A stretch of 64,000 nt of DNA from Clostridiales bacterium (GCA_022508305.1 JAFLVM010000001.1:962341-1026340), one strand, 5' to 3'; positions 2,324 through 44,816 are shown, counted from the stretch's first letter. Translations and numbers: made by a program. Notes: generated by a model not told the origin, from the letters alone.

Positions 2324-2353
2324 AATTTAAAATAGCAAAAGAGAAGGTAAATT

Positions 2354-4998: not shown

Positions 4999-4999
4999 A

Positions 5000-7260: not shown

Positions 7261-7262
7261 TC

Positions 7263-7930: not shown

Positions 7931-7945
7931 AAAGGAGATATAAAC

Positions 7946-8392: not shown

Positions 8393-8407
8393 AAATAATA
8401 ATAAAAC

Positions 8408-8441
8408 AAAAAAACACCGAGTAAACCACACGGTGTTTTTT
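8408..8441. terminator. Bidirectional terminator between convergent genes
   Basis: Stem acaccg (414-419) / cggtgt (431-436), with an A-run before and a T-run after. Confidence 0.7.
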
Positions 8442-8871
8442 ATTTTATGTAGTTTTGTTGACGTTCGAGTTGAAGCCAACTGGCAATGCTGCTTATCAAC
8501 TCGCCGTTTGTCGGAGAATACTGCGGTTTGATTACCTCTCCGCGCATCAAGTCGTTGAACGCGTACAGGTTGCCGTTCACGTGACAGTCGTTAATGGTGT
8601 TGCGGATTGCGCGTTCTACACGGTTTACGGTGGTGTCAAGCTTGTTGGCAACGGCGGGGTATACGTCCTTGGTCAAGCTAAGCCGCGCGTTGTCCGACTG
8701 TTCGTACCGATAGAGTACCGCCTCTTTGAGATAAGCAGTGCCAACGAGCTTGCTCTTGAACACAAGCGCGTTGAGCAACCGCCCGACGACTATCGACGCA
8801 TCGTGCGATCCGTCGCCGACAATTTGGTTGTGGAGAATTTGGAAATTAGTTTCGGCGCGAGTGTCGCTCAT
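8440..8871 (-). CDS. Stand-alone Spo0A C-terminal (DNA-binding) domain protein, no receiver domain
   Basis: Aligns by eye with the Spo0A C-terminal domain: HDASIVVGRLL..VGTAYLKEAV, VYPAVANKLDTTVNRVERAIRNTI, SPTNGELISSIASWLQLE. ATG at 8871 has an AGGAG upstream. The ORF-track start at 8946 is the alternative. Confidence 0.8.
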   Translation of the reverse strand: MSDTRAETNFQILHNQIVGDGSHDASIVVGRLLNALVFKSKLVGTAYLKEAVLYRYEQSDNARLSLTKDVYPAVANKLDTTVNRVERAIRNTINDCHVNGNLYAFNDLMRGEVIKPQYSPTNGELISSIASWLQLERQQNYIK

Positions 8872-8984
8872 AGAAAGAATGCTCCTGTATTTTTTCGATA
8901 GCTGGCTTGCATGTATTGTATCACAAAATTTGACGTTTATCAACACTTTTTAACAAAAATAATCAGGCACTTTTTAACGAAAAT

Positions 8985-9031
8985 TGTTCAAAATTGTCGA
9001 AAAAATGACAATTTAAGACAAATGTGTCGTA
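8985..9031 (+). promoter_or_regulatory. Cluster of 0A-box-like heptamers (TGTTCAA 8985, TGTCGAA 8995, TGTCGTA 9025)
   Basis: TGTCGAA at 8995-9001 is an exact match to the Bacillus 0A-box consensus TGNCGAA. It is embedded in the inverted repeat ATTGTC-N8-GACAAT, upstream of the Spo0A_C gene. Confidence 0.35.
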
Positions 9032-9192
9032 AAAATTGTAAAAAAGTCACTTTTGTACAAAAATAGCAGGCTCGGGAATTCGCTTTGAAGTCTGGCGCGA
9101 GATTTCAGTCAAAGGTGGGCTACGTCCTTGTCTCGCGATGCCTCCAAATCGAACACCCTCGCCTCTATCTGTGGGCAACTAATTGCAGATTG

Positions 9193-9221
9193 TTGACTTT
9201 TTTGCGGTGTTGAACTACAAT
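9193..9221 (+). promoter_or_regulatory. leuS promoter (TTGACT-17-TACAAT)
   Basis: -35 at 9193-9198, -10 at 9216-9221, about 40-nt leader with an AGAGG RBS. Confidence 0.6.
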
Positions 9222-9260
9222 TTGTGTAAATAGTAGTTAATTATATATATAGAGGTCTAT

Positions 9261-11705
9261 ATGGACAAGATTGCAGTAGAACAAAAGTGGAACAAGCTGT
9301 GGAACGAGCAGCAGGTGTACAAATTCGACGGCAAGGACGTAGACAACAAGTACTACGTTTTGGAAATGTTTTCTTACCCAAGCGGTAGCAAATTGCACGT
9401 CGGTCACTGGTACAACTACGGACTTACCGACAGCTTTGCAAGATACCAAATTATGAAAGGCAAAAACGTGTTTCAACCCATGGGCTTTGACGCGTTCGGT
9501 CTGCCTGCGGAAAACTACGCAATAAAAACAGGCGTTCATCCCGAGGACAGCACGTTGCACAACATTGAGGTCATGGAAACTCAGCTCAAGAATATCGGCG
9601 CAATGTTCGATTGGGATCACGAGATCAAGACCTGCCTACCCGAATATTACAAGTGGACGCAGTGGATTTTCGGCGAACTGTTCAAGCGCGGACTTGCCTA
9701 CCGCAAGAAGGCGCCTGTCAACTGGTGTCCAAGCTGCAACACGGTGCTTGCCAACGAGCAGGTGGTGGACGGTCACTGCGAACGTTGCGACAGTCAGGTG
9801 GTAAAAAAGGACCTTACGCAATGGTTTTTCAAGATTACCGACTACGCAGAGGAGCTGCTTCAAGGACTTGACAATCTTGATTGGCCGGAAAAGACCAAGG
9901 CAATGCAACGCAACTGGATTGGCAAGTCTCAAGGCGGCGAAATAGTATTTGAGTTGGCTACAAGGAAGAACAGCAGCAAAACCGCCAGCTTCAAGGTGTT
10001 TACCACTCGCGCTGACACGTTGTTCGGCTGTACCTACGTAGTGCTTGCTCCCGAACACGAGTTGGTGGCGAAAATCACCACGCCTAAACACAAGGCGGAA
10101 GTGGCGGCGTACATTGAAGAAGTCGCTAAAACCAACGAAATCGAGCGCCTTTCGACAGCCAAGGAAAAGACGGGCGTATTTACAGGCGCTTACGCAATCA
10201 ACCCCATTAACGGCGAAAAGGTACAAATTTGGATTGGCGACTACGTACTTGCCAGCTACGGCACGGGCGCGGTTATGGGCGTTCCGTCACACGACGCAAG
10301 AGACTACAAGTTTGCGGTTAAGCACGGTTTGAAGATTAAACGCGTTATCAAAGCGGCGACAGAGGGCGTTGACGACAGTTTGCCCTTCTGCGACTACGGC
10401 GTTATGGTAAACAGCGGCGAGTTTGACGGTTTGACGAGCGAACAGGGCAAAATCGCTGTTGTCGAAAAACTTGCAAAGTCAGGCAAAGGCGAACTCAAAA
10501 CCAACTACCGTCTCAGGGACTGGCTTGTGTCCCGTCAGAGATATTGGGGCGCGCCGATACCTATCATTCACTGTCCGCATTGCGGAGAAGTGCTTGATGA
10601 GAATTTGCCCGTAAAACTACCGTACGACGTAGAATTCCGTCCCGACGGTACGAGTCCGCTTGCTAAACACGACAAGTTTATTCACGACGTCAAGTGCCCC
10701 AAGTGTGGCGCGGCTGCAACTCGCGACCCCGATACGTTGGACACCTTCGTTTGCAGCAGTTGGTACTACTTGAGATACCCCGACGCCAAAAACAGTGAAA
10801 AGCCCTTCGATACCGCATGGATTGACAAGATGCTACCCGTAGACAAGTACGTTGGCGGCGCAGAACACGCTTGCATGCACCTGCTGTACGCGCGCTTTAT
10901 CACCAAGGCTCTTAGAGATATGGGCTATCTGCACTTTGATGAACCTTTCAAGTCGCTCGTTCACCAAGGCGTAATTCTTGGACCCGACGGCAACCGCATG
11001 AGCAAATCTCACGGTAACGTAGTTTCACCCGATGATTACGTCGGTACCTACGGCGCGGACGTTTTCCGTTGCTACCTCGCTTTCGGCTTCCGCTATATTG
11101 AGGGCGGACCGTGGTCTGACGACGGTATCAAGGCTATCAATAAGTGGTTGGACAGAGTGGAGCGTTTCGTTCTTTCCGCTTACGGCGAGTACGAAACAAC
11201 CGACAGCTTTGGCAAAGAAGAAAAGGAACTCAACCGCGTACGCCACGCTACAATCAAGGCGGTGGACGCGGACTATCAGGATTTCTCATTCAATACAGCG
11301 GTCGCCCGTATGATGGAGTTGGTTAACGCAATCGCTAAATACGACCAACTTTCCAACAAAAATCCCAAACTGTACAAGGAAACTGTTGACGACTTGCTGA
11401 AACTGCTTTGCCCGCTTGCTCCTCATTTTGCGGAAGAACTGTGGCAGCAGACGGGGCACGATGGTAGCATCGTCGTTACCAAATTCCCCACTTTTGACGA
11501 AAGCGCATTGAAGGTTGCCGAGACGGAAATTTTGGTGCAGTTCAACAGCCGTCCAAGGGTACGTTTGACGGTAGACGCGACGCTCACTCCCGCCGAGCTC
11601 GAAAAGGTTATTCTTGCCGACAGTCAAGTGCAAGAGCAACTCAACGGCGCAACTGTAAAGAAGGTTATCGTAATTCCGGGTCGCTTGGTAAACGTAATTT
11701 TGTAG
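9261..11705 (+). CDS. leuS: Leucyl-tRNA synthetase
   Basis: 814 aa. HVGHWYNY (HIGH-type) and RMSKSHGN (KMSKS) motifs, CP1 editing-domain length, zinc-binding Cys pairs. Confidence 0.97.
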
Positions 11706-21513: not shown

Positions 21514-22191
21514 TTATTGCTTACTGTTGCGTTTGGATTTGCGAGAAGAGGCTTTTAACTCCTCAAGTTGCTGTTTTAAAGCAAGTATCTTGTTGAAAAT
21601 GATTTCGTTTGCTCGGTTCAATTCCTCTTTTGTGGGCATGGGGCTTGTAGTAGTGATATAGTCGGCAACGTTTATCGGGTTGCCTATGATTACGCTCGCC
21701 CTTTTGAAAAAGCCGTAATTGCCGTCGGTGACAATTGGAATTATTGGCGCGTTTGCGCGGTGAGCAATAACAACGTAGCTTCGCTTAAAGGGGTGTATGT
21801 TTCCGTCGGGAGTGTTGCGCCCTTCGGGGTAAATTTGTACGAGCTGCCCTTTGCTTATCACCTCGGCGCTTTTATTCATGAAACTCATGTCGCGTGTTAT
21901 ACGGTTTGCCTGTATTCCGCCCACGAACTTCATTCCGAAAGACAGAAATTTGTTTTGATAGGGCATTTCCGACGTCACGACGTTTAGCTTGCGCGGCGCC
22001 ACGAGGAACATATTTAAAAAGTAGTCCAACACGTTGTAGTGGTTGGAAATGACGAGCGCCCCGCCCTTTTTCCAGCCTTTTCGTTTGACGTTGTTCTCGT
22101 AGTAGGTTTTGCGCTTGAAGAATATAAGCTGCAAGGGGTACCCAAGTATTATGGCAAGCCAGCGAAAGAAATCGTAAACAAAGTTTTTCAT
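21514..22191 (-). CDS. PlsC-family acyltransferase (paralogue of 4336-4998)
   Basis: 225 aa. SNHYNVLDY (HX4D) and IYPEGRNT. The N-terminus is alignable with the 4336 gene (LQLIFFKRKTYYEN vs LQYFYFRKKIYYED). Confidence 0.8.
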   Translation of the reverse strand: MKNFVYDFFRWLAIILGYPLQLIFFKRKTYYENNVKRKGWKKGGALVISNHYNVLDYFLNMFLVAPRKLNVVTSEMPYQNKFLSFGMKFVGGIQANRITRDMSFMNKSAEVISKGQLVQIYPEGRNTPDGNIHPFKRSYVVIAHRANAPIIPIVTDGNYGFFKRASVIIGNPINVADYITTTSPMPTKEELNRANEIIFNKILALKQQLEELKASSRKSKRNSKQ

Positions 22192-22196
22192 AAATC

Positions 22197-23711
22197 TTAT
22201 TGTTCTTCTTGCTTTTCTTCAAGTTTAGGCTTTGCGGCTTTGCCCATTTGGGAAATTGTCTTAGAAAAACCAAATGACATTGCGAATGCAAGCATGCACG
22301 CCGCGGCAACGACAATCGGCATGTAGCAAATGTAGGAAGCTTCTTCACTCCCTTTCAAAAACACCAAAATAGGACCCGTTGCAATTCCCGCTGCAATACC
22401 TTCGATGAGACCTTCCACGGCAAAGTACATTGAGGACACGCTGACGCCCTTTGACTCAAATTCCACTTGAGCAAGGTGGGAGGGCACGGTGTAGGAAACG
22501 GAAAAGAATGCGCCTATTGCAAAAGATGCAAGCAATCCGCCTACGACGGCAACTGCAGTAAGCTCCCACTCGGACAAATTGCCCTTGACCAAGCTGCACA
22601 CGAACATTACCATCATACCTAATGAAAACATCACCAAAGTGTATCTGAACGCCCAGCCCAAACCGAATTTTTTGACCATTTTGTTGTACAGCAGTATGGT
22701 TAGCGGTACCGGCGCAAATGAGGTTGCCATTACTATGGTCTGGTTTACTTCAACTGTTGAGAACAGCTCGTTTATTCCGCCCAAGAACAGCTGCAAGCCG
22801 ATATTCATAACCGCAGCGGTCAACATCCAGTAGAGGAAGGTTTTGTTTTTGAAAGCGCACGCGATTGACGCTCCAAGCTTCAGGGGCGGTTGTACTTCTA
22901 CACCGTTAGCAGTGGTGTCGGCTTTTTGTTCGTTGGCGGCATTTGTGTCTACTTCATCAGTAGTCGCGGTCTGCTCCTGGGTTTTGTCAACTTTTGTTGA
23001 CTTTTCCTTGAGCATGAACAGCGGAATGAGCATAAACAGCGACAACGGCATGAATATGAGCGCAACGTAGCGAATGTTTACGCCAAGGCTGACGAACAAC
23101 GGTATCAATGCGTAGCCCAAGCTGAAGTAAATCACGTCGCTAATGGACTTTATGTTGGACAAAAACACCGTGTCGCTTTCCTTTTCCGTAATTTCGGAAA
23201 ACGTTGCGTAGTAGGTTAGCATGGTAAGGGTGTAAAAGGTGTAATATACGCACAGCAACACGCCAAACCAAATGGTATTCAAGAGCGTTTCGCCGTTTTC
23301 CAGCGGAATGAGGAACAGCACGTACGCCAGCATCATCGGAACGAAGCCTATTACGATAGCGGGGCGACGTCTTCCCCAGCGTGTTTTAAGTCGGTCGGTA
23401 AAGGAAGAGAGTGGGATGTCAATTACGCCGTCCAAAATCTTTGCAACAAGTATCATAACGCTCCAAACAGCCGCAATTACCAAGTTTTTGTTTAGATACG
23501 TCCAAGATTCAACGTGTTCTTCGAATCCGCCAACGAGCAAAGCGCTGCAAAGATACGAACCCATTATTAGGTTCAGCATGTTTACGCCCAGACCCGAAAA
23601 TCCGTATAAAAAGAGTTTTTTTCTGCTTGTAATCTTTTGCAAAGTCGTTTCCTCAAATTTACATACTACTGTAATGTGGATTTTACGATAAAAATCGACA
23701 TTTGTCAACAC
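22197..23711 (-). CDS. MFS transporter, GPH/MFS_2 (MelB/MFSD2-like) type
   Basis: 504 aa. DGVIDIPLSSFTDRLKTRWGRRRP signature. Stops 5 nt before the PlsC-like gene. Confidence 0.75.
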   Translation of the reverse strand: MLTNVDFYRKIHITVVCKFEETTLQKITSRKKLFLYGFSGLGVNMLNLIMGSYLCSALLVGGFEEHVESWTYLNKNLVIAAVWSVMILVAKILDGVIDIPLSSFTDRLKTRWGRRRPAIVIGFVPMMLAYVLFLIPLENGETLLNTIWFGVLLCVYYTFYTLTMLTYYATFSEITEKESDTVFLSNIKSISDVIYFSLGYALIPLFVSLGVNIRYVALIFMPLSLFMLIPLFMLKEKSTKVDKTQEQTATTDEVDTNAANEQKADTTANGVEVQPPLKLGASIACAFKNKTFLYWMLTAAVMNIGLQLFLGGINELFSTVEVNQTIVMATSFAPVPLTILLYNKMVKKFGLGWAFRYTLVMFSLGMMVMFVCSLVKGNLSEWELTAVAVVGGLLASFAIGAFFSVSYTVPSHLAQVEFESKGVSVSSMYFAVEGLIEGIAAGIATGPILVFLKGSEEASYICYMPIVVAAACMLAFAMSFGFSKTISQMGKAAKPKLEEKQEEQ

Positions 23712-24108: not shown

Positions 24109-25047
24109 ATGAAGAAGTACATAATTTTGACTGACTCGTCTTGCGACATGTCCCCTGAACTGAGAGAGCATTTCGGCGTAAAGGACTACGTGCCCGGTTA
24201 CGTTCATTTCAGCGACGGCAGAGATTTGAGAACTACTTTGGATTGGAGCAACATTTCCCGCGAAGAGTTCTACGGTGCTCTTTCCGACAAGCGCATGAAG
24301 CTGACAACCGCTCCCAGCAGCCCCGAGGAGTTTTACGAAGTTTTCCGCAAATACGCCGAGCAGGGTTATGACATTTTGAGCATTTCCATTTCGACGGCAA
24401 TCAGTCTTACGTACGCCAACACTCAAAAGGCGGCAGAGCGTATCAAGGCGGAATTCCCCGACTGCGAAATTTATTGCGTAGATTCACTCAGAATGTCCGG
24501 TTCGCAAGCGTTGCTCGTTGCTTACGCTCACATACTTCAAGGTCAAGGCAAGTCCGTCAAAGAGGTTTACGAGTGGCTTGAGGCTAACAAACGCAAGGTT
24601 CACCAAATGGGACCCATTGACGACCTCATTTTCGTTGCTCGCCGCGGACGTATTTCTATGGGCAAGGCAATTTTCGGCAGCTTTGCAGGAGTTAAGCCCA
24701 TGGGCGACAACAACAGCGAAGGCTACGTAACGGTTCACGGCAAGGCAAAGGGCATCAAGAAAGCCCTTGCTCTCACTGTGGAATACATTAAGCAAGCGGC
24801 TGTAGACATTGAAAACCAATTCGTTTACATCGCTCACAGCAACAGAGAAGAGTACGCTCTCACCTTGAAGGAAATGATTGAAAACACACTTCACCCCAAG
24901 GATGTTTTCGTCAGCGACGTTTTCCTGTCCAGCGGCACCAACATCGGTCCCGGTATGATAGGCGCGTATTTCCTTGGCGAGGAAATTTCCGAGGACGGCT
25001 CCAAAGAAAAAGAATTGATGCAAAAGGCAATGGAAAATTGCAAATAA
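24109..25047 (+). CDS. fakB: DegV-family fatty-acid-binding protein (FakB-type)
   Basis: 312 aa. Typical DegV N-terminus MKKYIILTDSSCDM and family length. Confidence 0.8.
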   Translation: MKKYIILTDSSCDMSPELREHFGVKDYVPGYVHFSDGRDLRTTLDWSNISREEFYGALSDKRMKLTTAPSSPEEFYEVFRKYAEQGYDILSISISTAISLTYANTQKAAERIKAEFPDCEIYCVDSLRMSGSQALLVAYAHILQGQGKSVKEVYEWLEANKRKVHQMGPIDDLIFVARRGRISMGKAIFGSFAGVKPMGDNNSEGYVTVHGKAKGIKKALALTVEYIKQAAVDIENQFVYIAHSNREEYALTLKEMIENTLHPKDVFVSDVFLSSGTNIGPGMIGAYFLGEEISEDGSKEKELMQKAMENCK

Positions 25048-25075
25048 TTAGGTAACTGTTACTTCAGAGGAAAAA

Positions 25076-26698
25076 ATGTTAAAAACTATCAACGCGTCGT
25101 GTTACAGCGACATGCTTAAATACGGCGTCAACCACTTGGAAAACTACTGCGAAGTCGTCAATGACCTCAACGTTTTTCCCGTGCCCGACGGCGACACGGG
25201 AACCAACATGGTCATGACCTTGAAAAACGGACTTGGCGCAATGGGCGGCGACGAATTGGGCAAGGTTGCCCAAAGCTTTGCCAACGCCACCGTGTTTGGC
25301 GCAAGAGGCAACTCGGGCGTCATCATTTCGCAATTTTTCAAGGGTGTTTCCGAGGGCTTGAAGAACGCCAACGAGGCGGACGCCAAGTTGTTTTCAAAGT
25401 CGCTGGACATGGGCTGCGACTACGCGTACGCTGCCGTAGCAACTCCCGTTGAGGGCACCGTTTTGACGGTAATGAAGGACGCGACAACGGCAGTCAGAGA
25501 GGAATTGGACGGAATTACCACCGTCAACGAGCTTGTTGACGTGTTTTTGAAGCAGGCGCGTATTACGCTTGAAAACACGCCCAATCTTTTGGAAATTTTG
25601 GCAAAAGCGGGCGTAATTGACAGCGGTGGCGCAGGACTCGTGTACTTTTTCGAGGGAATCGAGCGTTACTTGAAGGGCGAAGCGCTGGAACAGGTGCAAT
25701 CTCAACACCAGGCGGCGGAGTACATTGACTACTCCAAATTTAACAGGTTCAGCAAGTTTGAATTTGGCTACTGCACGGAAACGCTGTTGCAGCTGACTGT
25801 AGACGAAAATGATTTCGACCGCAAGGATTTTAGCGAAAAGCTGCAAGGTTTAGGCGAATCTATCGTAACGTCGTTCGAGGGGGACAAGGTCAAGGTGCAC
25901 GTTCACACCCACACCCCCGAGCGTGTTTTGGAATTTTGTCATCAATACGGCGAGTTTTTGTCACTTAAGATAGAAAATATGTCCGTTCAGCACACGCAGA
26001 CGGTGCAAAAATATCTTTGCGCAACTTCATCCGAGCAGAGCAGCTTTGCCGTTGTGGCGGTTGCTCCTAACGCGACTTTGCAAAAAATGCTGTCGGATAT
26101 GGGCGCGGACGTCGTAGTGCTGAGCGCTGAAGTGCCCTCGTCGCAAGATTTCATCGAGGCTTACGAACACACGGGCGCCAAGCATATTATCGTGTTCCCC
26201 AACAACGCCAATTCAATTCTTTCCGCTAAGCAGGCGGGTAAATTGTACAAACAGGCGGAAGTTGAGGTAATCAAGAGCAAATCCATCGCGGAATGTTACT
26301 CGGCGCTTGCGGTAATCGACTTTTCCGAAACGGACGTTGACGACGTTGTGGACGTGGTGGAGGACACCATTGACGAACTTTACGAGGTCTCTATCGTTCG
26401 CGCCGCCAAGAACACGAAGTTTGGCAGCCGCAACATTTTGAAAGGCGACTACTTTGCAATGTCAGGCGACGACGTGATACAATCCGGAGGCAAGCTGGAG
26501 TACGTCGTGTGGCTCACAGTCAATGAAGTAGTGGAGGACAGGGATTGCGGTGTAATCAACATGTTTTACGGCAAAAACGTAACGAGAGAACAAGTTGAAG
26601 CAATCGCCAACGAAATAGAAAAAGCCCACTTCGGCTTAGAAGTGTGCCTGATTTCCACAGAGGATACGGTGTACGACCTAATTTTGTCCTTCGAATAG
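25076..26698 (+). CDS. fakA: DAK2-domain fusion protein YloV / fatty acid kinase FakA-type
   Basis: 540 aa. Dak2 motif PDGDTGTNM and a DegV-like C-terminal half. Adjacent to the DegV gene. Confidence 0.75.
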   Translation: MLKTINASCYSDMLKYGVNHLENYCEVVNDLNVFPVPDGDTGTNMVMTLKNGLGAMGGDELGKVAQSFANATVFGARGNSGVIISQFFKGVSEGLKNANEADAKLFSKSLDMGCDYAYAAVATPVEGTVLTVMKDATTAVREELDGITTVNELVDVFLKQARITLENTPNLLEILAKAGVIDSGGAGLVYFFEGIERYLKGEALEQVQSQHQAAEYIDYSKFNRFSKFEFGYCTETLLQLTVDENDFDRKDFSEKLQGLGESIVTSFEGDKVKVHVHTHTPERVLEFCHQYGEFLSLKIENMSVQHTQTVQKYLCATSSEQSSFAVVAVAPNATLQKMLSDMGADVVVLSAEVPSSQDFIEAYEHTGAKHIIVFPNNANSILSAKQAGKLYKQAEVEVIKSKSIAECYSALAVIDFSETDVDDVVDVVEDTIDELYEVSIVRAAKNTKFGSRNILKGDYFAMSGDDVIQSGGKLEYVVWLTVNEVVEDRDCGVINMFYGKNVTREQVEAIANEIEKAHFGLEVCLISTEDTVYDLILSFE

Positions 26699-35585: not shown

Positions 35586-36062
35586 TTATCTTCTTTCCAC
35601 CAGTAAAACTCTGTCTTTTGTAACTTTTCTTGTAACGCCCAAGTGTTTTTCCATTTCTTCCACAAGGAACATCAATTGCTTGTAGGGAATCTCGTAATAG
35701 TCGAAGCCAAAGTTCTTTTTGAGGTAGGGTTGACGGCGGAAGTAGAGGTTCAAGAGATTTTCAACGATTTCAAGATAGTTTGTAATGCGGTATTCCGACA
35801 GATTGCCGTACTTGCCAAATTCCAACACGGCGTCGGCATTATTCATAAACTCGAATAGCGACAGGCATGTTCCCTTGAATGGTAGGTAGTTGAACAGCAC
35901 TCTGTCCGCAAAGTCGAAAAAGCGGTAGTTGACAACCTTGTTTTCTTCCGGCTTGGTGCAGGAGAAAAATGGCTCGTAAGTCAACAAATCGTTGATTTTG
36001 CGAATTTCTCTTTCAAGATTGTAGTTGTTTTTCACTATTTCGTAGACACTTTCTCTACTCAT
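35586..36062 (-). CDS. Hypothetical protein
   Basis: 158-aa ORF with no recognisable motif. The coding call rests on length and its position between terminators. Confidence 0.45.
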   Translation of the reverse strand: MSRESVYEIVKNNYNLEREIRKINDLLTYEPFFSCTKPEENKVVNYRFFDFADRVLFNYLPFKGTCLSLFEFMNNADAVLEFGKYGNLSEYRITNYLEIVENLLNLYFRRQPYLKKNFGFDYYEIPYKQLMFLVEEMEKHLGVTRKVTKDRVLLVERR

Positions 36063-36276
36063 GTCACACCTCTCTAATATGAGTTCGGTTAATCTATTAT
36101 ATTTTTATCTGTTGTACTAAGTTGCAACGCTTGGTATCAAAAATATGTTTAAGTATAACACACCCTCGTGTAAAAATCAATAACGTATCGTCGCATTTTG
36201 TAATAACCGTTGACAGACGACCTGAAATAAAATATCATATAATTATCAACAAACAAAAAATAAAAGGAGATTTACA

Positions 36277-36846
36277 ATGAGAAGTATCACAAAGTTGGAT
36301 TTGCAGTACGCGCACAGATTTTACGGTTTCAAGGGTGAGGCTCAGTACCTTCACGGACATACGGGCGTGCTGACGATAGAAGTAGAAGACAGCATCGAAA
36401 GCGGTGTAAACATGGTTTTCCCCTGCAACGAAATCCGCAAGACGGCATGGGAAGTTTTGCAAAACTTTGACCACGCGCTTGTTTTGAGAGAGGACGATCC
36501 GCTGCTGCCGGCAATTCTTGGCGTATACGAGAAGCAGGGTATCAAGAACGGCGCACCCACCAATAAGCAAAAAGGGCCTGCTTTCAAGACGGAACTTGCA
36601 ACAGCGTATCCCGAGTGCCGTTTGGTTGTTACTAAGGAAACGATGACGGTTGAAGGAATGATCAAGATTGTCTACGACCTCTTGAAGGACAAGCTGAACA
36701 TTGTCCGCCTTACGTTTACAAGCGGTGTAAACGCAGCTACTGAAGAATACGCTCCCAAGCAAAGCCTTGGTCGTTGTCCCCTTTGCGGCATTGCCCTAAA
36801 CGAAAACGGCATCTGCCCCAAGTGTGGCTACAGACATACAAAGTAA
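36277..36846 (+). CDS. 6-pyruvoyl-tetrahydropterin synthase / QueD-like protein with C-terminal zinc ribbon
   Basis: AHRFYGF...YLHGHTG (PTPS His motif) and C-terminal CPLCG...CPKCG. RBS AAGGAG. Confidence 0.6.
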   Translation: MRSITKLDLQYAHRFYGFKGEAQYLHGHTGVLTIEVEDSIESGVNMVFPCNEIRKTAWEVLQNFDHALVLREDDPLLPAILGVYEKQGIKNGAPTNKQKGPAFKTELATAYPECRLVVTKETMTVEGMIKIVYDLLKDKLNIVRLTFTSGVNAATEEYAPKQSLGRCPLCGIALNENGICPKCGYRHTK

Positions 36847-36880
36847 AATCCCATTTTGATATAAAACACAACCCCATATA

Positions 36881-36910
36881 AAAAAGCAGAGAAAAATTCT
36901 CTGCTTTTTT
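36881..36910. terminator. Bidirectional terminator
   Basis: aaaaagcagag-aaaaatt-ctctgctttttt. Confidence 0.75.
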
Positions 36911-37016
36911 CATTTGGCGGAGCGGTAGTAACGTAAAGCGAATAATTGTAGATGCATCACTCATAACGTGAAGCAAATATTATCAATATAGGTTCTAAAG
37001 GCATTAAGGTGCTGCT

Positions 37017-37820
37017 TCAAATATGGTAACCTAAAGATTCAAGAGTAAATAACAAAAAGTATAAAATTGCTATTTCAAACGAAACATCTTCCTTTTCCAT
37101 TATTAATGCAACTAATCTTTCCTTATCTTTTGAAAGTTTAAATTCCACAAAAGGGTCATCTAATTTTTCTTTCTCGGCGTATGGATCTGCGTGTCCCCAC
37201 AATGACAGCGCAATACCAGCATAACCAGTTTCAATAATACGAATGCAGTTTTTTTGCGTAATTGAAGATGTTATGGCTTTTTCTGCGCTTAAATTTTTCG
37301 CTCGCATTATCTTTTTGAGCATATCCTGTGGATTTACAGCGTCTTTAAAATTAAAAGATACTTTAGGTCTTTTTTTACTTTTTGTAGGCTTATCCTCTAG
37401 GAAAACTGTTTTAAATACTTCTAATTTGGATTCATCGTCAAAATTCTTTAAGTATTCTTTCTCGTACGACTTCCAATCCGCAACAATCATACTCTCAACC
37501 ATATTGGTAAAAAATCCTTGCTTTTCTTGGTAAGTTTGTCTGTTAATCAATAAGAGTTTACCTAATTCTAATGCCGGCTCGGAAGCATTTATTAATTCAC
37601 TCCATTTATAAAAACCAGAGAGTCTAGCAATTATATGCTGAGCATTCATTAAGGAAAAAGAATCTTCATCGTCAATATCGAAATTGACAAGAATTTCCTC
37701 AATGTCATTAAAAAAGCGAGGACTATATTCATAGAACTCCTCGTTTTCATTGTACACTCGTGTTTTATAATCTTTGAAAAGATTTTTAGCTTGTTGTTTA
37801 AAAAATTCTATATTTGTCAT
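37017..37820 (-). CDS. Hypothetical protein in an AT-rich segment
   Basis: 267-aa ORF, markedly AT-rich. The N-terminal FFKQQAKNLFKDYK...AQHIIARLSGFYKWSELI pattern recurs in many uncharacterised bacterial proteins. Confidence 0.5.
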   Translation of the reverse strand: MTNIEFFKQQAKNLFKDYKTRVYNENEEFYEYSPRFFNDIEEILVNFDIDDEDSFSLMNAQHIIARLSGFYKWSELINASEPALELGKLLLINRQTYQEKQGFFTNMVESMIVADWKSYEKEYLKNFDDESKLEVFKTVFLEDKPTKSKKRPKVSFNFKDAVNPQDMLKKIMRAKNLSAEKAITSSITQKNCIRIIETGYAGIALSLWGHADPYAEKEKLDDPFVEFKLSKDKERLVALIMEKEDVSFEIAILYFLLFTLESLGYHI

Positions 37821-38154
37821 AATATACTCCTTATTTATTACGCTTATTGTCTATTAACATGCATCCGTAAACTTTGTAGACAATAAACCTTTAATAAAGA
37901 TTATATTATCATTTAATGGCTGATGAAATCTTTGCACGGACGAGCAGGCTTGCCATAAACCTAATTAAAAGTATATCAGAAGTTTAATTCATTGTCAATC
38001 AAAATGTAATCGTTATAAAAGTTTAATTAACTTCAAGTGTAACTATGATGTCGCCAAATATATGAAGTTTGTTTTAATATTTAATTGTTAATACAAAACT
38101 CAATCCTGTGTATCTAAAAAAGAACCCAATCCAAAGGTTCGGATTAGGTTCTTG

Positions 38155-38246
38155 TGGCGGAAGCGGTGGGATTCGAACCCACGTACCGCTTGAGGCGGTA
38201 ACCGCATTTCGAGTGCGGGCCGTTATGACCACTTCGATACGCTTCC
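38155..38246 (-). tRNA. tRNA-Ser (CGA)
   Basis: Reverse complement reads GGAAGCG..., anticodon loop CTCGAAA, long variable arm, GGTTCGAATCC T-loop, CGCTTCCGCCA 3' end. Confidence 0.85.
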
Positions 38247-40557: not shown

Positions 40558-40646
40558 GGAGAGATGGTCGAGCGGTTTAAGGCACACGCTTGGAAAGCGT
40601 GCGAGGTTAACAGCCTCCGCAGGTTCAAATCCTGTTCTCTCCGCCA
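40558..40646 (+). tRNA. tRNA-Ser (GGA)
   Basis: GGAGAGATGGTCGAGCGG..., anticodon loop TTGGAAA, long variable arm, GGTTCAAATCC, ...CTCTCCGCCA. Confidence 0.9.
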
Positions 40647-40670: not shown

Positions 40671-40704
40671 AAAAAAAGGAACGCGAATGAGCGTTCCTTT
40701 TTTG
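40671..40704. terminator. Bidirectional terminator
   Basis: aaaaaaaggaacgc-gaatga-gcgttcctttttt. Confidence 0.75.
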
Positions 40705-40712
40705 TTTGTAGG

Positions 40713-41066
40713 TTATTGATTGTCTATTGCTTCGATTTGTTTTATGTAAATTTCATTGCCTTGTAGCAAATAGGTGTGTTCGCTGCCGCAATGCGGGCAA
40801 GTTTTGCCGTGTTGAACGGTGGGGTAATCTTTTAAACAGTCTTCGCAATGTGTGATTGCGTCTATTCTTTCGATTATCAACTTAGAGTTTTCCAACACGG
40901 GCTCTTTTTTTATCGCCCAGTTCCAGCAATCCTCAAACAAATGTGGAATAACCGTGGAAACCTCTCCGATTTGGATGGTTACAGAGTTCAATTTCTTAAC
41001 GTTGTTCTCTGCAGCTATCTCGTTTATCTGTTTTATGCAGTGAAACACCACACCCAACTCGTGCAT
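40713..41066 (-). CDS. hypA: Nickel metallochaperone HypA
   Basis: 117 aa. N-terminal MHE Ni-binding motif, Zn site CEDC...CPHCG. Confidence 0.85.
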   Translation of the reverse strand: MHELGVVFHCIKQINEIAAENNVKKLNSVTIQIGEVSTVIPHLFEDCWNWAIKKEPVLENSKLIIERIDAITHCEDCLKDYPTVQHGKTCPHCGSEHTYLLQGNEIYIKQIEAIDNQ

Positions 41067-43927
41067 TAGTCTTTCTTCTCCTTAAAGGCCTTCTTTCTCG
41101 CCTTAACGAATTCCTTGTCGGCTTTGTCTTTCTTTGCGAAAACAACTTTTACCGCGCGCTTAGCCATGTAGGGCAAGATGTGTTTGAACTTGTCTTCGGC
41201 AACGACCATTTTGCTCGCCTCGGGATGGTCGCGGTGCAGTGTGATTGCGTCAAACTTGCACTTTGTCGTGCAAATTCCGCAACCGATACATCTGTTTTCG
41301 TCCACGACGGTGGTTCCGCAACCAAGACAGCGTGACGTTTCAATCTTGACTTGCTCTTCCGTCAAGGTCTTGTGCGCGTCCGTAAACTTTGCGTGAACGG
41401 CCTCGTCCATACCTGCTTCCTGACGTGAGGAGTTGTCGTAGCTTTCTACGCGTACGTCGCCCGTGTTGAATTGAATGAACTCTCTGCGGTTTCTGCCGAT
41501 AGTCATGTGACCGTGTTGAACGTAGCGGTGGAGTGACTCGGCAGCTTCGTGTCCTTGCGCGATTGCGTCAATGGCAAATTTCGGTCCTGTGTAAACGTCG
41601 CCGCCAACGAAGATGTCTTCTTGAGCCGTTTGATAGGTCAAGCTGTCTGCAACGGGTCCGTTGCCTCTACCGAACTCTACCTTGCTGCCCTTTAGCAAAT
41701 CTCCCCAAACGATAGTTTGACCGATAGCGAATATAACCTTGCTTGCAGGAACGGTTATCGTGCTTGCTTCATCGTATACGGGAGCAAATTTGCCGTTTTC
41801 GTCGTATACGCGAACGCATTTCTTGAATACGACTCCAACTGCTTTGCCATTTTCCGTAAGTACTTCCTTGGGACCCCAACCGCAGTTAATTTCTACGCCG
41901 TCCTCTCTTGCTTCGGCAATTTCTTCCTTGCTTGCGGGCATAATGTCTTCCGTTTCAAGGCAGAGCATAGTAACCTTTGTCGCTCCGCTACGGGCAGACA
42001 CGCGAGCCGCGTCAATTGCGACGTTACCGCCGCCGACGACTACGACTTCGCCCTTTGTTGCGACCTTGCCTGTGTTGGCAATCTTGAGATAGTCAACAGC
42101 CGTCGTTACGCCGTCCGCATTTTCGCCTGCGATACCGGGCAATCTGCCGCCTTGGCAACCGATAGCAACGTAGAATGCTTTGTAGCCTTGCTCGCGCAGT
42201 TGGTCGATTGTAACGTCCTTGCCAACTTCAACGCCGAGACGGATTTCTACGCCCATTTCCTTCATAACGTCGATTTCCGCTTGAACGACGTCTTTTTCCA
42301 GCTTGTAAGAGGGAATGCCGTAGGTCAGCATACCGCCCGCCTTTTCGTTCTTTTCGAAAACGGTGGGGTAGTAGCCCATTTGCGCAAGATAGTAGGCGCA
42401 AGACAATCCCGCAGGGCCTGCGCCGATAATTGCGATTTTCTCTTTCCAATGGCCTCTGTTGGAGGCGACTACTATTTCGGGTACGTATCTGTGTTCGGCG
42501 TGTAAATCCTGTTCGGCAATAAATTTCTTTACCGCGTCGATGGACACAGCTTGGTCGATTGTTCCGCGAGTACAAGCGTCCTCGCAACGGCGGTTACACA
42601 CTCTGCCGCAAACAGCGGGGAACGGGTTTTCCTTTTTGATGATTGCCAACGCTTCTCTGTATTCGCCTTGAGCTGCCTTTTTGAGGTAGCCTTGAACGGC
42701 AATGTGAGCGGGGCAGGCTGTTTTACAGGGAGCGGTGCCCGTTTCGTGGCAGTTGATGCGGTTTTTGTCGCGATAGTCCTCATCCCACATGTGTTCGCCC
42801 CAAGCAAGCTTGTCGGGGAGTGGTTGTTTGGGGTAGGTTACCTCGCTGCCGTCCGCTTTACACAGCTTTTGACCGAGTTTCAACGCTCCTGCGGGGCAGT
42901 ACTCTACGCAAGCGCCGCAAGCAACGCACTTTTGTCTGTCAACGTGCGCGCGGTAAGCGGACGCGGACATATTAGGCGTGTTGAACAGCTGTGACGTACG
43001 CAGCGCGTTACAAATTTTCACGTTGCAGTTGCAGATAGCAAAAATTTTGTTTTCGCCGTCGATGTTGGTAATTTGGTGAACGAAACCGTTGTCTTCGGCG
43101 CGCTTCAGTATTTCCATTGCCTGTTCGTAGGTGACGTCGTAGCCTCTGCCCGTTTCGCGGCAGTAGTCAGCCATGTCGCCAACGCCTATGCACCAACCTT
43201 GATAGTCGTCCGCGCAGCCTTCGTCAAGTTTCTTTCTTCCGTAGCGGCATGAGCAGATGGATGCGCCAATGTGTCCTTCGTAGCGTTTGAGCCAGTAGGA
43301 AATGTGCTCGATGTCCATGGTGGTGTTTTCCATGGCAATGGCTTTTTCTACGGGAATGACGTGCATACCGATACCCGAACCGCCTGCGGGTACCATTGCA
43401 GTAACTTTTTCGAGTGGCAAGAACGTCATACGCTCGAAGAACATTGCAAGCTCGGGGTGTTTGTCCATGAGCTTGATGTTCATGTTGGTGTATTCTGCCG
43501 AACCGGGAACAAACAACGGTATCCAGTAGTGTCTGTCCTCTTTGTTGTAGGTGGTGCCGGGAATAGGTCCTTCCTTGGTGTACTTGTCGCCGTAGTCGTA
43601 CTCGAACAGCCCGAACATTGAAAGCTGTTCGGCTACTGCGTCAAAGGTTGCATCGTCGTAGCCTGACAGTTGTTTCAATTCGGCGTAAGGATATTTCTTT
43701 CTTACTTTCATTTTGAGGAGCAAATCCAACGAGAGTTCGCGCTCTTCGGGCGTCATTTCGTCCTCGAAAATGCAGGCAAAGCCCCAATATTCGGGGTCTT
43801 CGGATTTAATTCCCTTTACCTTGCCCGGCAGTCTGTCGGTTACGCGACGGACAAACTTCAACAGCTTGGGGTTGGGATTTTTGTCATGCATGTGCGCGGG
43901 TACAAATCTTTTACTCATTTCCGGCAT
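41066..43927 (-). CDS. Multidomain Fe-S flavoprotein oxidoreductase: Cys-rich N-domain + ferredoxin domains + GltD/YgfK-like NAD(P)H/FAD module
   Basis: 953 aa. CVACGACVEYCP, GltD-type CKTACPAHI...CGRVCNRRCEDAC, IAIIGAGPAGL and VVVGGGNVAID dinucleotide folds, C-terminal CLGCG...CIGCGICTTKC. Confidence 0.7.
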   Translation of the reverse strand: MPEMSKRFVPAHMHDKNPNPKLLKFVRRVTDRLPGKVKGIKSEDPEYWGFACIFEDEMTPEERELSLDLLLKMKVRKKYPYAELKQLSGYDDATFDAVAEQLSMFGLFEYDYGDKYTKEGPIPGTTYNKEDRHYWIPLFVPGSAEYTNMNIKLMDKHPELAMFFERMTFLPLEKVTAMVPAGGSGIGMHVIPVEKAIAMENTTMDIEHISYWLKRYEGHIGASICSCRYGRKKLDEGCADDYQGWCIGVGDMADYCRETGRGYDVTYEQAMEILKRAEDNGFVHQITNIDGENKIFAICNCNVKICNALRTSQLFNTPNMSASAYRAHVDRQKCVACGACVEYCPAGALKLGQKLCKADGSEVTYPKQPLPDKLAWGEHMWDEDYRDKNRINCHETGTAPCKTACPAHIAVQGYLKKAAQGEYREALAIIKKENPFPAVCGRVCNRRCEDACTRGTIDQAVSIDAVKKFIAEQDLHAEHRYVPEIVVASNRGHWKEKIAIIGAGPAGLSCAYYLAQMGYYPTVFEKNEKAGGMLTYGIPSYKLEKDVVQAEIDVMKEMGVEIRLGVEVGKDVTIDQLREQGYKAFYVAIGCQGGRLPGIAGENADGVTTAVDYLKIANTGKVATKGEVVVVGGGNVAIDAARVSARSGATKVTMLCLETEDIMPASKEEIAEAREDGVEINCGWGPKEVLTENGKAVGVVFKKCVRVYDENGKFAPVYDEASTITVPASKVIFAIGQTIVWGDLLKGSKVEFGRGNGPVADSLTYQTAQEDIFVGGDVYTGPKFAIDAIAQGHEAAESLHRYVQHGHMTIGRNRREFIQFNTGDVRVESYDNSSRQEAGMDEAVHAKFTDAHKTLTEEQVKIETSRCLGCGTTVVDENRCIGCGICTTKCKFDAITLHRDHPEASKMVVAEDKFKHILPYMAKRAVKVVFAKKDKADKEFVKARKKAFKEKKD

Positions 43928-43928
43928 A

Positions 43929-44618
43929 TTACTTACCTTCCTTCTTCCATTGTGTAATATTGTATTTTAGCCATTCGGCAAATTTGTCAATTCCATCCCC
44001 TGTTTTTGCGCAAATAGGAATAACTTGCGCGTTGGGATTTCTCATCTTGATGTATTCTTTACATTTTTCGAGGTCGAAATCGAAGTATGGCGCGACGTCC
44101 ATTTTGTTGATAAGCACGAGGTCGCATATTGAAAACATCAATGGGTATTTCAGCGGCTTGTCGTGTCCTTCGGGAACGGAAAGGATCATGCAGTTTTTAC
44201 TTGCTCCCGTGTCGAACTCGGCAGGACAAACGAGATTGCCGACGTTTTCCAAAATCACAAGATCGGTGTTGGTTAGGTCAAGTCCGTTGAGTCCCTGTCT
44301 TGTCATTTCCGCGTCAAGGTGACACATTCCTCCCGTGTGCAACTGAATGGACTGTACGCCCGTTGCCTCTTTAATTTTGATGGCGTCAACGTCGGAATCA
44401 ATGTCCGCTTCCATAACGGCAATTCTTACGTCCTTTTTCAGGCTGTTGATGGTTTTAATCAAGGTCGTCGTTTTGCCGCTGCCCGGTGATGACATCAAAT
44501 TGAGCAGAAACACACCCTTTTGTCGCAATTCACTGCGAAGAACGTCCGCGTCTCTGTCGTTGTCTTCGAAAATGCTTTTTTTGATTTCAATTACTCTTAC
44601 TTCGTCCATAAAAGACAC
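43929..44618 (-). CDS. hypB: Nickel-incorporation GTPase HypB
   Basis: 229 aa. P-loop SSPGSGKTT, ENVGNLVCPAEFD, INKMD. Confidence 0.85.
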   Translation of the reverse strand: MSFMDEVRVIEIKKSIFEDNDRDADVLRSELRQKGVFLLNLMSSPGSGKTTTLIKTINSLKKDVRIAVMEADIDSDVDAIKIKEATGVQSIQLHTGGMCHLDAEMTRQGLNGLDLTNTDLVILENVGNLVCPAEFDTGASKNCMILSVPEGHDKPLKYPLMFSICDLVLINKMDVAPYFDFDLEKCKEYIKMRNPNAQVIPICAKTGDGIDKFAEWLKYNITQWKKEGK

Positions 44619-44704
44619 CTCAAAACATACGACTAAATTGTAACTAAATTGACGGTAAAAGTCAATATGAATAAATATTTATAAAATGAAATTCAAGATA
44701 AATT

Positions 44705-44766
44705 ATTTTATTTCATTACTGGTTTTTTTATTTTGTTTCATTGCTATCGCGTATTTTGTTTCATTA
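44705..44766. repeat. Three direct repeats ATTTT(A/G)TTTCATT(A/G) spaced 23-24 bp, upstream of hypB
   Basis: Copies start at 44705, 44729 and 44752. They lie between the upstream terminator and the hypB start. Confidence 0.6.
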
Positions 44767-44782
44767 GCTGCCGCGCTGCAAC

Positions 44783-44816
44783 ATAAAAACACCCAATATT
44801 GAGGCTTGGGTGTTTT
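44783..44816 (-). terminator. Terminator of the PRC-barrel gene
   Basis: aaaacaccca-atattgaggct-tgggtgtttt. Confidence 0.65.

What the first reader, a model, noticed from the sequence alone, without database searches (positions are those of the whole stretch)
40713..44618. hypB and hypA flank a 953-aa Fe-S flavoprotein with junctions of 1 nt or less, and no hydrogenase or hypCDEF genes are in view
Seen in sequence: HypB (43929-44618), a large oxidoreductase (41066-43927) and HypA (40713-41066) lie on one strand. There is a 1-nt gap and then a 1-nt overlap, so they are almost certainly co-translated. The middle protein combines a Cys-rich ~330-aa N-domain (ICSCRYGRKKLDEGC...WC...CNCNVKIC), ferredoxin motifs and a GltD/YgfK-type NAD(P)H-FAD module. 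Established knowledge: HypA/HypB deliver nickel to [NiFe]-hydrogenase, and in some species to urease. Inference: either this flavoprotein is the diaphorase partner of a hydrogenase encoded elsewhere, or HypAB serve a different metal client here, possibly the intervening enzyme.
Basis: partly seen in the sequence, partly recalled or inferred. Interest (0 to 1): 0.6.

Follow-up and report, generated by a model that had tools for sequence, protein, structure and literature searches.

The report
IsrA-type reductase with own nickel chaperones
The three genes are a self-contained cassette in which nickel-delivery proteins HypB and HypA flank a large iron-sulfur flavoenzyme of the little-studied "putative isoprene reductase" (IsrA) family. 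The cassette is found in hundreds of gut and rumen anaerobes, so the enzyme itself is the likely nickel client, but a 2023 paper already reported this link.

Summary
hypB (43929-44609), a 953-aa gene X (41066-43927) and hypA (40713-41066) lie on the minus strand. The junctions are a 1-nt gap and a 1-nt overlap. The unit has its own promoter-like site and a terminator hairpin. No hydrogenase, hypCDEF, urease, CODH or nickel transporter was found in the 64 kb.

X is a full-length homolog of IsrA, the putative isoprene reductase of Acetobacterium wieringae (45% identity, all six cysteines of the unusual "Cys6" site conserved). It lacks the 26-residue insert that marks true IsrA.

In 80 related genome loci from at least five phyla, 56 of the 70 with enough flank carry both hypA and hypB within 1.6 kb of X, and 69 of 70 carry hypA. 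DNA similarity to the closest loci stops at the cassette ends.

The diaphorase-of-a-distant-hydrogenase idea is disfavoured but not excluded for this genome.

Kronen et al. 2023 (PMC10134865) already reported the IsrA-HypA/HypB association and proposed nickel insertion. No biochemistry had been found up to mid-2026. This is a new member of a known but uncharacterised kind. The substrate is unknown and is probably not isoprene.

The parts
44637..44665 (-). Promoter-like site TTGACT-17-TACAAT upstream of hypB. It overlaps an inverted repeat ATTGAC-N7-GTCAAT.
   Evidence: 10 of 12 consensus matches. The core is conserved in the closest locus L001. Consensus match only; function not shown.
43929..44609 (-). 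hypB: GTPase nickel chaperone, 226 aa from the ATG (the ORF extends to a GTG at 44618). It has the P-loop GSGKTT, the G-domain metal motifs CH and NVGNLVCP, and NKMD. It has no N-terminal CxxCGC or His-rich tract.
   Evidence: TIGR00073 245.5 bits, above the cut-off of 121.2. PF02492. Motifs read and conserved in 58 of 58 neighbours. 62% identical to the HypB of the isr operon. Closest solved structure 2hf8, E 2e-42.
41066..43927 (-). X: 953-aa IsrA-family ('clade 9') Fe-S flavoprotein.
   Evidence: 45% identity over 919 columns to IsrA (P0329, A. wieringae ISORED-2). Domain map.
42953..43927 (-). N-terminal domain of X (residues 1-325). It has a winged-helix-like part (about residues 20-110) and a conserved core with no annotated family.
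   Evidence: No Pfam or NCBIfam hit. No PDB sequence or Foldseek relative. 838 cluster representatives at 50% identity match it at E <= 0.001.
43010..43255 (-). Cys6 site: C225-x-C227, C246, C299-x-C301 and C306, plus invariant R228, E278, H284, N288 and N300. This is the proposed Ni/Fe-S active site.
   Evidence: These residues are invariant in 70 sequences at 38-93% identity and in the divergent set A2. C225/C227 align to IsrA Cys180/182 and C299/C301 to Cys254/256 (PMC10134865). Metal content not tested.
42878..42946 (-). First ferredoxin-type [4Fe-4S] motif CVACGACVEYCP (Fer4, residues 328-350).
   Evidence: PF00037. C334, C337, C340 and C344 are invariant.
42503..42751 (-). Fer4_20 domain (residues 393-475), the two-[4Fe-4S] domain of GltD, DPD and NfnB.
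   Evidence: PF14691, E 1e-20.
41552..42439 (-). FAD/NAD(P)H-binding module (Pyr_redox_2, residues 497-792) with GAGPAG and GGGNVA dinucleotide motifs.
   Evidence: PF07992, E 3.8e-26. Nearest solved relatives are 9bov, 8oh5, 9n5u, NfnB (5jca) and GltD.
41192..41308 (-). C-terminal ferredoxin-type cluster motifs (residues about 874-912: CLGCG...CIGCGICTTKC).
   Evidence: Fer4_7, Fer4_9 and Fer4_21 hits.
40713..41066 (-). hypA: nickel metallochaperone, 117 aa. It has the N-terminal MHE nickel motif and two CxxC zinc motifs (CEDC, CPHC).
   Evidence: PF01155, E 5.5e-30. TIGR00100 scores 67.9, below the equivalog cut-off of 88.1. MHE is present in 53 of 57 neighbouring HypA, and two CxxC motifs in 57 of 57. 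30% identical to isr HypA1.
40671..40697 (-). Terminator hairpin GGAACGC-TCATTC-GCGTTCC followed by T7, 16 nt after the hypA stop.
   Evidence: Read directly. The consensus scan did not list it.
44781..44816 (-). Hairpin plus T-run ending the upstream 222-aa gene. It marks the 5' boundary of the cassette.
   Evidence: Inverted repeat I3, 11 nt, 100% complementary. Sequence.

Best explanation
hypB-X-hypA is an autonomous three-gene operon. [quoted passage not shown]

Proposed mechanism:
1. NAD(P)H reduces the FAD of the GltD-like module.
2. Electrons pass along a chain of ferredoxin-type [4Fe-4S] clusters.
3. They reach a unique site in the N-terminal domain built from six invariant cysteines (two CxC pairs).
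4. There, a hydrophobic substrate with a non-activated or conjugated C=C bond is reduced and serves as an electron sink.

The dedicated HypB GTPase and HypA chaperone load nickel into, or next to, that Cys6 site. This parallels their role for [NiFe]-hydrogenase and Helicobacter urease.

Shown here: family membership, domain order, invariant residues, conserved synteny, and independence of the cassette from its genomic context.

Inferred: that nickel is the metal delivered, that the Cys6 site receives it, and that the reaction is C=C reduction. The substrate of this gut/rumen subclade is unknown. It is probably not isoprene.
For: - Family membership: BLASTP of X against IsrA (P0329, confirmed as IsrA by its isrA-hypA-hypB-fdx-hypA locus L081) gives 45% identity over 919 columns. 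The CxC pairs fall at the published positions (PMC10134865).
- Invariant residues: six Cys plus R228, E278, H284, N288 and N300 are invariant in 70 homologs.
- Synteny: in 80 loci from Bacteroidales, Clostridia, Erysipelotrichaceae, Coriobacteriia, Spirochaetales and Anaeroplasmataceae, 56 of the 70 with enough flank have both hypA and hypB within 1.6 kb, and 69 of 70 have hypA. Junctions are mostly -8 to +30 nt. The gene order varies (B-X-A, B-A-X, X-A-B) but adjacency is kept.
- Chaperone motifs: the nickel and zinc motifs of HypA and HypB are conserved in the neighbours.
- Cassette independence: DNA similarity to the closest loci covers only window 40720-44680.
- No competing client nearby: no recurring hydrogenase family or [NiFe] large-subunit motif in 1.28 Mb of neighbourhoods. 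No other nickel enzyme gene in the window.
- Literature: Kronen et al. found HypA next to 73% and HypB next to 56% of 988 homologs, and A. wieringae lacks [NiFe]-hydrogenase and hypCDEF. In Pelotomaculum cultures, hypA and hypB were induced about 373-fold and 585-fold by isoprene.
Against: - No metal analysis or enzyme assay exists for any family member.
- The rest of this genome could not be inspected for a [NiFe]-hydrogenase.
- HypA scores below the NCBIfam equivalog cut-off (67.9 against 88.1), so it is a divergent HypA whose metal specificity is not guaranteed.
- AlphaFold models of the N-domain are only moderate (pLDDT 68-69). They are poorest in the 166-204 loop, where residues are conserved in the closest homologs (A1) but largely vary in divergent ones, and from about residue 303 onward. 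Cys6 geometry could not be checked.
- Acetobacterium homologs at 47-49% identity to IsrA do not reduce isoprene, so the C=C reductase function is an extrapolation.
Confidence: 0.6

Rival explanations
1. HypA and HypB mature a [NiFe]-hydrogenase (or urease) encoded elsewhere in the genome. X is its NAD(P)H-linked diaphorase or electron-transfer partner.
For: Maturing [NiFe]-hydrogenase is the canonical role of HypAB. HypB passes the hydrogenase HypB equivalog model. Only 64 kb of the genome is visible. Pelotomaculum, which has an IsrA homolog, also has [NiFe]-hydrogenases, and one preprint interprets hypAB induction that way.
Against: - No hydrogenase, hypCDEF or urease gene in the window.
- None recurs within 10 kb of X in the 80 loci.
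- The cassette moves as a unit between unrelated contexts.
- A. wieringae has the association without any [NiFe]-hydrogenase or hypCDEF.
- X has no NuoE/NuoF-type diaphorase domains, and it has its own invariant terminal Cys6 domain.
Confidence: 0.1
2. HypAB are dedicated to X but deliver a metal other than nickel (zinc, cobalt or iron). Alternatively, they act as a GTP-driven assembly or gating factor for an all-iron Fe-S cluster (for example a double-cubane or P-cluster-like site) in the Cys6 pocket.
For: - HypA here is divergent (below the equivalog cut-off).
- Members of the CobW/HypB/UreG GTPase class handle several metals (established knowledge).
- Six cysteines could bind a purely Fe-S cofactor, and Kronen et al. 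note resemblance to P-type and double-cubane clusters.
- Some Lachnospiraceae loci add HGD-D proteins and a BcrAD-type activase typical of double-cubane or radical Fe-S systems.
Against: The nickel-specific N-terminal MHE of HypA and the CH...C G-domain site of HypB are conserved across the neighbours. HypB is a high-scoring member of the nickel-specific HypB family.
Confidence: 0.2
3. X is an ordinary GltD/NfnB/YgfK-type NADPH oxidoreductase subunit (glutamate synthase small chain, Nfn, selenate or uric-acid pathway). Its adjacency to hypAB has no functional meaning.
For: Residues 388-899 match PRK12771 (E 3.8e-130), and GltD, YgfK and AegA models match at E 1e-77 to 1e-82. Public annotation calls homologs 'glutamate synthase beta subunit-like'.
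Against: - All these models score far below their curated cut-offs (for example gltD_gamma_fam 276.6 against 482.95, and YgfK 270.8 against 835.3).
- The 325-residue N-domain is absent from those families.
- Synteny with hypAB is conserved in 80% of loci.
Confidence: 0.03

Closest known systems
IsrA, the putative isoprene reductase of Acetobacterium wieringae ISORED-2 (VUZ27132.1), and its 'clade 9' homologs (Kronen et al. 2023, PMC10134865)
   Same: Same full-length architecture: an unannotated N-domain with a Cys6 site and two CxC pairs 74 residues apart, then Fer4, Fer4_20, the FAD/NAD(P)H module and a C-terminal Fer4. 45% identity end to end. Adjacent hypA and hypB. HypB is 62% identical to the isr HypB.
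   Different: - X lacks the 26-residue insert (IsrA 756-782) that marks the isoprene-reducing cluster.
- X has about 45 extra N-terminal residues.
- The operon is hypB-X-hypA rather than isrA-hypA-hypB-fdx-hypA, with no second hypA and no ferredoxin-like paralog.
- The host is a gut-type Clostridia bacterium, not an acetogen.
- The substrate is unknown.
NfnB, GltD and dihydropyrimidine dehydrogenase NAD(P)H-FAD-2x[4Fe-4S] modules (for example PDB 5jca, 6s6s, 1gt8; also 9bov, 8oh5, 9n5u)
   Same: Residues about 390-805 of X are homologous (E 1e-52 to 1e-93) and presumably act as the NAD(P)H electron-input module.
   Different: These proteins have no counterpart of residues 1-380. X fails their curated family cut-offs. 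They have no known link to nickel chaperones.
HypA/HypB nickel delivery to [NiFe]-hydrogenase and, in Helicobacter pylori, to urease
   Same: HypA has the MHE nickel site and a Zn(Cys)4 site. HypB is a 'type 1' G-domain-only GTPase with the CH...C site, as in H. pylori. A precedent exists for HypAB serving a non-hydrogenase client.
   Different: No hydrogenase, HypCDEF or urease is nearby. The presumed client is a flavo-Fe-S reductase. HypA is divergent (E 7e-07 to H. pylori HypA).
Ni-Fe-S active sites of CODH (C-cluster) and acetyl-CoA synthase (A-cluster) with their CooC/AcsF ATPase chaperones
   Same: The concept is the same: nickel inserted by a P-loop NTPase into or next to a cysteine-ligated Fe-S cluster at the end of an electron-transfer chain. 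Some Lachnospiraceae cassettes add a CooC-like ATPase and a CdhC-like protein.
   Different: No sequence or fold similarity was detected between the N-domain of X and CODH or ACS. The chaperones here are HypAB.

Membership tests
[quoted passage not shown] | End-to-end homology to IsrA (~900 aa) with the order N-domain, Fer4, Fer4_20, Pyr_redox_2, C-terminal Fer4 | tested here: met
   45% identity over 919 columns to P0329 = IsrA. Domains.
[quoted passage not shown] | Cys6 site with two CxC motifs (IsrA Cys180/182 and Cys254/256) | tested here: met
   C225/C227 and C299/C301 align to them. C246 and C306 are also invariant.
[quoted passage not shown] | Genomic association with hypA and hypB | tested here: met
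   Flanked by both in the window. Both are present in 56 of 70 related loci.
IsrA proper (isoprene-reducing cluster I) | 26-residue insert at IsrA 756-782, shared only with strain Y and the Pelotomaculum orthologs | tested here: not met
   There is a gap in X opposite the insert. So X is not an IsrA ortholog.
IsrA proper (isoprene-reducing cluster I) | Isoprene-inducible expression and isoprene-to-methylbutene activity | not testable with these tools
   Needs culture or enzyme work. Acetobacterium homologs at 47-49% identity do not reduce isoprene.
Nickel enzyme (any) | Nickel bound in the purified protein and required for activity | not testable with these tools
   Inferred only from the dedicated HypAB.
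HypB (TIGR00073) | Score above the curated cut-off; P-loop, CH...C metal site and NKxD | tested here: met
   245.5 bits against 121.2. Motifs.
HypA (PF01155 / TIGR00100) | HypA fold signature, N-terminal MHE and two CxxC motifs | tested here: met
   Pfam 104.1 bits against 28.9. MHE, CEDC and CPHC are present. The stricter TIGR00100 equivalog cut-off is not reached (67.9 against 88.1).
Glutamate synthase small subunit GltD / YgfK / AegA | Score above the curated family cut-off | tested here: not met
   TIGR01318 276.6 against 482.95. TIGR03315 270.8 against 835.3. PRK12769 261.2 against 1003.
Hydrogenase diaphorase (HoxFU/NuoEF type) | NuoF-like FMN/NADH domain and NuoE-like [2Fe-2S] domain | tested here: not met
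   No such Pfam families among the hits of X.

The most novel reading that the evidence does not exclude
The gut/rumen subclade to which X belongs (70-90% identical between Clostridia, Bacteroidales, Spirochaetales and Coriobacteriia, and moving as a hypB-X-hypA cassette) is a genuinely nickel-dependent reductase with a new Ni-Fe-S active-site fold. It would hydrogenate an abundant diet-derived unsaturated hydrophobic compound other than isoprene (for example terpenoid or conjugated-diene lipids) as an electron sink. That would add a new class to the short list of nickel enzymes and put a gene on an orphan gut biohydrogenation activity.
Probability: 0.3. Interest if true: 0.8.

Novelty: new member of a known kind. 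Interest (0 to 1): 0.45.

Why it matters
Only about ten nickel enzyme classes are known. An NAD(P)H-driven Fe-S flavoprotein matured by HypAB would be a new class, with chemistry (reduction of non-activated C=C bonds) that is hard for known ene-reductases.

The family is widespread: relatives in at least 596 of the genomes scanned and 838 clusters at 50% identity. It is strikingly conserved in gut and rumen bacteria, so it may be a significant but unrecognised electron sink there.

The idea itself is not new. Kronen et al. 2023 proposed it for IsrA. This window adds a clean, minimal three-gene version that would suit heterologous expression and metal analysis.

Tried and rejected
- **Profile HMM of the Cys6 core against PDB sequences.** Only spurious coiled-coil hits appeared.
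- **FTR-like CxC idea.** I considered a ferredoxin:thioredoxin-reductase-like site from memory. No tool result supports it, so I dropped it as a membership claim.
- **Riboswitch or other RNA leader.** None was found; the only Rfam hits were tRNA-Ser and a sub-threshold sX4 match.
- **Extra conserved partners in the window.** The DUF5692 protein and the small membrane protein of the Bacteroidales operons have no counterpart in the window.
- **Literature for a biochemical characterisation or another name.** Searches on isoprene reductase, hypA/hypB with biohydrogenation, DUF5692, Butyrivibrio with linoleic acid, and ene-reductase/alkene found only the Kronen and Jin papers and two 2026 preprints. 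No enzymology turned up.
- **Link to rumen fatty-acid biohydrogenation.** X homologs do occur in Pseudobutyrivibrio, and the window holds fatty-acid uptake genes 15-40 kb away. No evidence connects them, so this stays speculation.
- **Names of divergent homologs.** The cluster look-up returned only generic annotation.


Full report
**Observation**

- hypA: 40713-41066
- a 953-aa gene, here called X: 41066-43927
- hypB: 43929-44618

The sequence reads AAG-TAA-t-ATG at the hypB/X junction and GAC-TAATG at the X/hypA junction. That is a 1-nt gap and a 1-nt overlap, and each start codon follows a purine-rich Shine-Dalgarno-like stretch.

The only correction concerns the hypB start. It most likely begins at the ATG at 44609 (226 aa), for three reasons:
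- GAGG sits 8 nt upstream of that ATG.
- Homologs begin MDEV.
- An independent gene call on an identical metagenome contig gives 226 aa.

A promoter-like TTGACT-17-TACAAT lies at 44665-44637. It is conserved in the closest relative. The upstream 222-aa gene ends with its own hairpin at 44781-44816. A GC-rich hairpin followed by T7 comes 16 nt after the hypA stop. The unit is therefore a self-contained tricistronic operon.

**Identity of the parts**

- **HypA.** It matches PF01155 (E 5.5e-30) and carries the N-terminal MHE nickel motif and two CxxC zinc motifs. It stays below the strict TIGR00100 equivalog cut-off, so it is a divergent HypA.
- **HypB.** It passes TIGR00073 (245.5 bits against 121.2). 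It is a G-domain-only type with a P-loop, CH...C and NKMD, and it has no N-terminal CxxCGC or His tract.
- **X.** Residues 328-350 are a Fer4 motif, 393-475 a Fer4_20 domain, 497-792 an FAD/NAD(P)H module, and about 874-912 a second ferredoxin motif. Residues 1-325 hit nothing in Pfam or NCBIfam. The GltD, YgfK and AegA models match only the central module and fall far below their curated cut-offs.

A Pfam sweep of 49 of the 51 ORFs of at least 90 aa found no hydrogenase, hypCDEF, urease, CODH, LarA or nickel transporter. A regex search found no [NiFe] large-subunit signatures.

**Comparative genomics**

The N-domain has 1353 homologs in the word-indexed protein search. An exhaustive search found 838 cluster representatives at 50% identity.

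The 80 best loci come from Bacteroidales, Clostridia, Erysipelotrichaceae, Coriobacteriia, Spirochaetales and Anaeroplasmataceae. Most are rumen or gut MAGs, and cultured Pseudobutyrivibrio is among them.

tblastn with the three window proteins gave these results:
- Of the 70 loci with enough flank, 56 carry both hypA and hypB within 1.6 kb of X.
- 69 of the 70 carry hypA.
- Junctions are mostly -8 to +30 nt.
- Gene order varies (B-X-A, B-A-X, X-A-B, tandem hypB), but adjacency is kept.

Clustering all ORFs of the loci found few other recurring families. The Bacteroidales loci share a 114-aa membrane protein and DUF5692. A Lachnospiraceae subclade shares a CooC-like ATPase, two HGD-D proteins, an activase and a CdhC-like protein. 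No hydrogenase family recurs.

At the DNA level, similarity between the window and its nearest relatives covers only 40720-44680 and stops at the cassette ends. X is 72-75% identical between this Clostridia-type window and the Bacteroidales loci. That level of identity, together with the differing flanks, fits horizontal spread of the cassette as a unit.

**Link to the literature**

A full-text search led to Kronen et al. 2023 (PMC10134865). They describe IsrA, a 901-aa oxidoreductase induced by isoprene in Acetobacterium wieringae. Its features are:
- an unannotated N-terminal region of about 270 residues;
- four canonical [4Fe-4S] sites and an FAD/NAD(P)H site;
- a 'Cys6' site with CxC pairs at Cys180/182 and Cys254/256.

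IsrA is encoded with two hypA genes, one hypB and a ferredoxin. The authors report that 73% of 988 homologs neighbour hypA and 56% neighbour hypB. They also report that A. wieringae lacks [NiFe]-hydrogenase and hypCDEF. On that basis they propose that HypAB insert nickel into IsrA.

I retrieved IsrA itself as P0329 and confirmed it through its locus L081, which shows the published five-gene operon. X aligns to it end to end at 45% identity. C225/C227 align to Cys180/182 and C299/C301 to Cys254/256. The window HypB is 62% identical to the isr HypB, and HypA is 30% identical to HypA1.

X lacks the 26-residue insert that Kronen et al. give as the signature of the isoprene-reducing cluster. Acetobacterium homologs at a similar distance from IsrA do not reduce isoprene. 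X is therefore a member of the family but not an IsrA ortholog.

Two 2026 preprints still treat nickel dependence as a hypothesis. One of them reports induction of hypA (about 373-fold) and hypB (about 585-fold) by isoprene in Pelotomaculum cultures. I found no enzymology or metal analysis of any family member.

**Mechanism**

The best-supported reading has four steps:
1. NAD(P)H reduces FAD in the GltD-like module.
2. Electrons pass through the Fer4_20 and ferredoxin-type clusters.
3. They arrive at the Cys6 site of the N-domain.
4. A hydrophobic unsaturated substrate is reduced there.

HypB and HypA would load nickel at that site.

In 70 sequences at 38-93% identity, the invariant N-domain residues are the six cysteines plus E145, R228, E278, H284, N288 and N300. 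These are candidates for metal or substrate ligands.

What is shown: family membership, anatomy, invariant residues, and the conserved and portable synteny. What is inferred: nickel as the metal, the Cys6 site as its destination, and C=C reduction as the reaction.

**Rivals**

- **A distant [NiFe]-hydrogenase as the true client, with X as its diaphorase.** This remains possible because only 64 kb of the genome is visible. It is disfavoured by the portability of the cassette, the absence of hydrogenase genes in all 80 neighbourhoods, the A. wieringae precedent, and the lack of NuoE/F-type domains in X.
- **Delivery of another metal, or assembly of an all-iron cluster.** This is a serious alternative, since HypA is divergent and six cysteines could hold a double-cubane-like cluster. 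The conserved MHE and CH...C nickel motifs argue for nickel.
- **A plain GltD or YgfK role.** The curated cut-offs and the extra N-domain exclude this.

**Verdict**

The core idea was published in 2023, so this is a new member of a known but biochemically untested kind.

It is of moderate interest. The minimal hypB-X-hypA cassette, widespread in gut and rumen anaerobes, is a good handle for testing whether a new class of nickel enzyme exists and what it reduces.

Noticed in passing
Loci L067, L071, L072, L076, L077 (about 4400-10000 in each, upstream of the X homolog): In a Lachnospiraceae/Pseudobutyrivibrio subclade, five genes precede the X homolog: a CooC-like ParA/MinD ATPase, two HGD-D (2-hydroxyacyl-CoA-dehydratase-like) proteins, a BcrAD/BadFG-type activase, and a 239-aa CdhC-like protein weakly similar to the middle domain of acetyl-CoA synthase. 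In the Pseudobutyrivibrio loci hypB is absent but the CooC-like gene is present.
   Followed up: partly
Bacteroidales loci, e.g. L033 13534-14969 and L016 3997-5424: The operon is extended downstream of hypA by a 114-aa membrane protein with no Pfam hit and a DUF5692 membrane protein (about 365 aa, PF18948, E 2.8e-127). Neither has a counterpart in the window.
   Followed up: partly
Loci L051-L055, L073, L074: Two hypB copies lie in tandem upstream of the X homolog (51-60% identical to the window HypB).
   Followed up: no
Proteins P0074 (567 aa) and P0083 (555 aa); L081 4796-5785 and 9801-10931: Short relatives of X keep the N-domain and the ferredoxin motifs but lack the FAD/NAD(P)H module. 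The isr locus encodes two such paralogs, about 25% identical to the N-domain of X.
   Followed up: partly
Window 44637-44766: Three direct repeats TATTTT(A/G)TTTCATT(A/G) lie at 44704-44766, spaced 23-25 nt apart, upstream of the hypB promoter. A perfect inverted repeat ATTGAC-N7-GTCAAT overlaps the -35 box. These are possible operator sites for an unidentified regulator.
   Followed up: partly
Window 365-7260, 21514-23711, 24109-26698: The window holds a concentration of genes for uptake and activation of exogenous fatty acids: AMP-binding with a carrier domain, MFS_2 transporters, four acyltransferases, DegV and FakA-like fatty acid kinase. They lie 15-40 kb from the cassette. No link to X was shown.
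   Followed up: no
Window 35586-38246: A low-GC stretch (GC 0.365 for 36001-38000, against 0.467 for the window overall) holds ORFs without any Pfam hit (35586-36062, 37017-37820). It lies next to tRNA-Ser at 38155-38246 and may be a small acquired island.
   Followed up: no
Window 40558-40646: A tRNA-Ser(GGA) gene sits on the opposite strand immediately downstream of the cassette terminator. It is 100% identical to a tRNA in locus L002.
   Followed up: no
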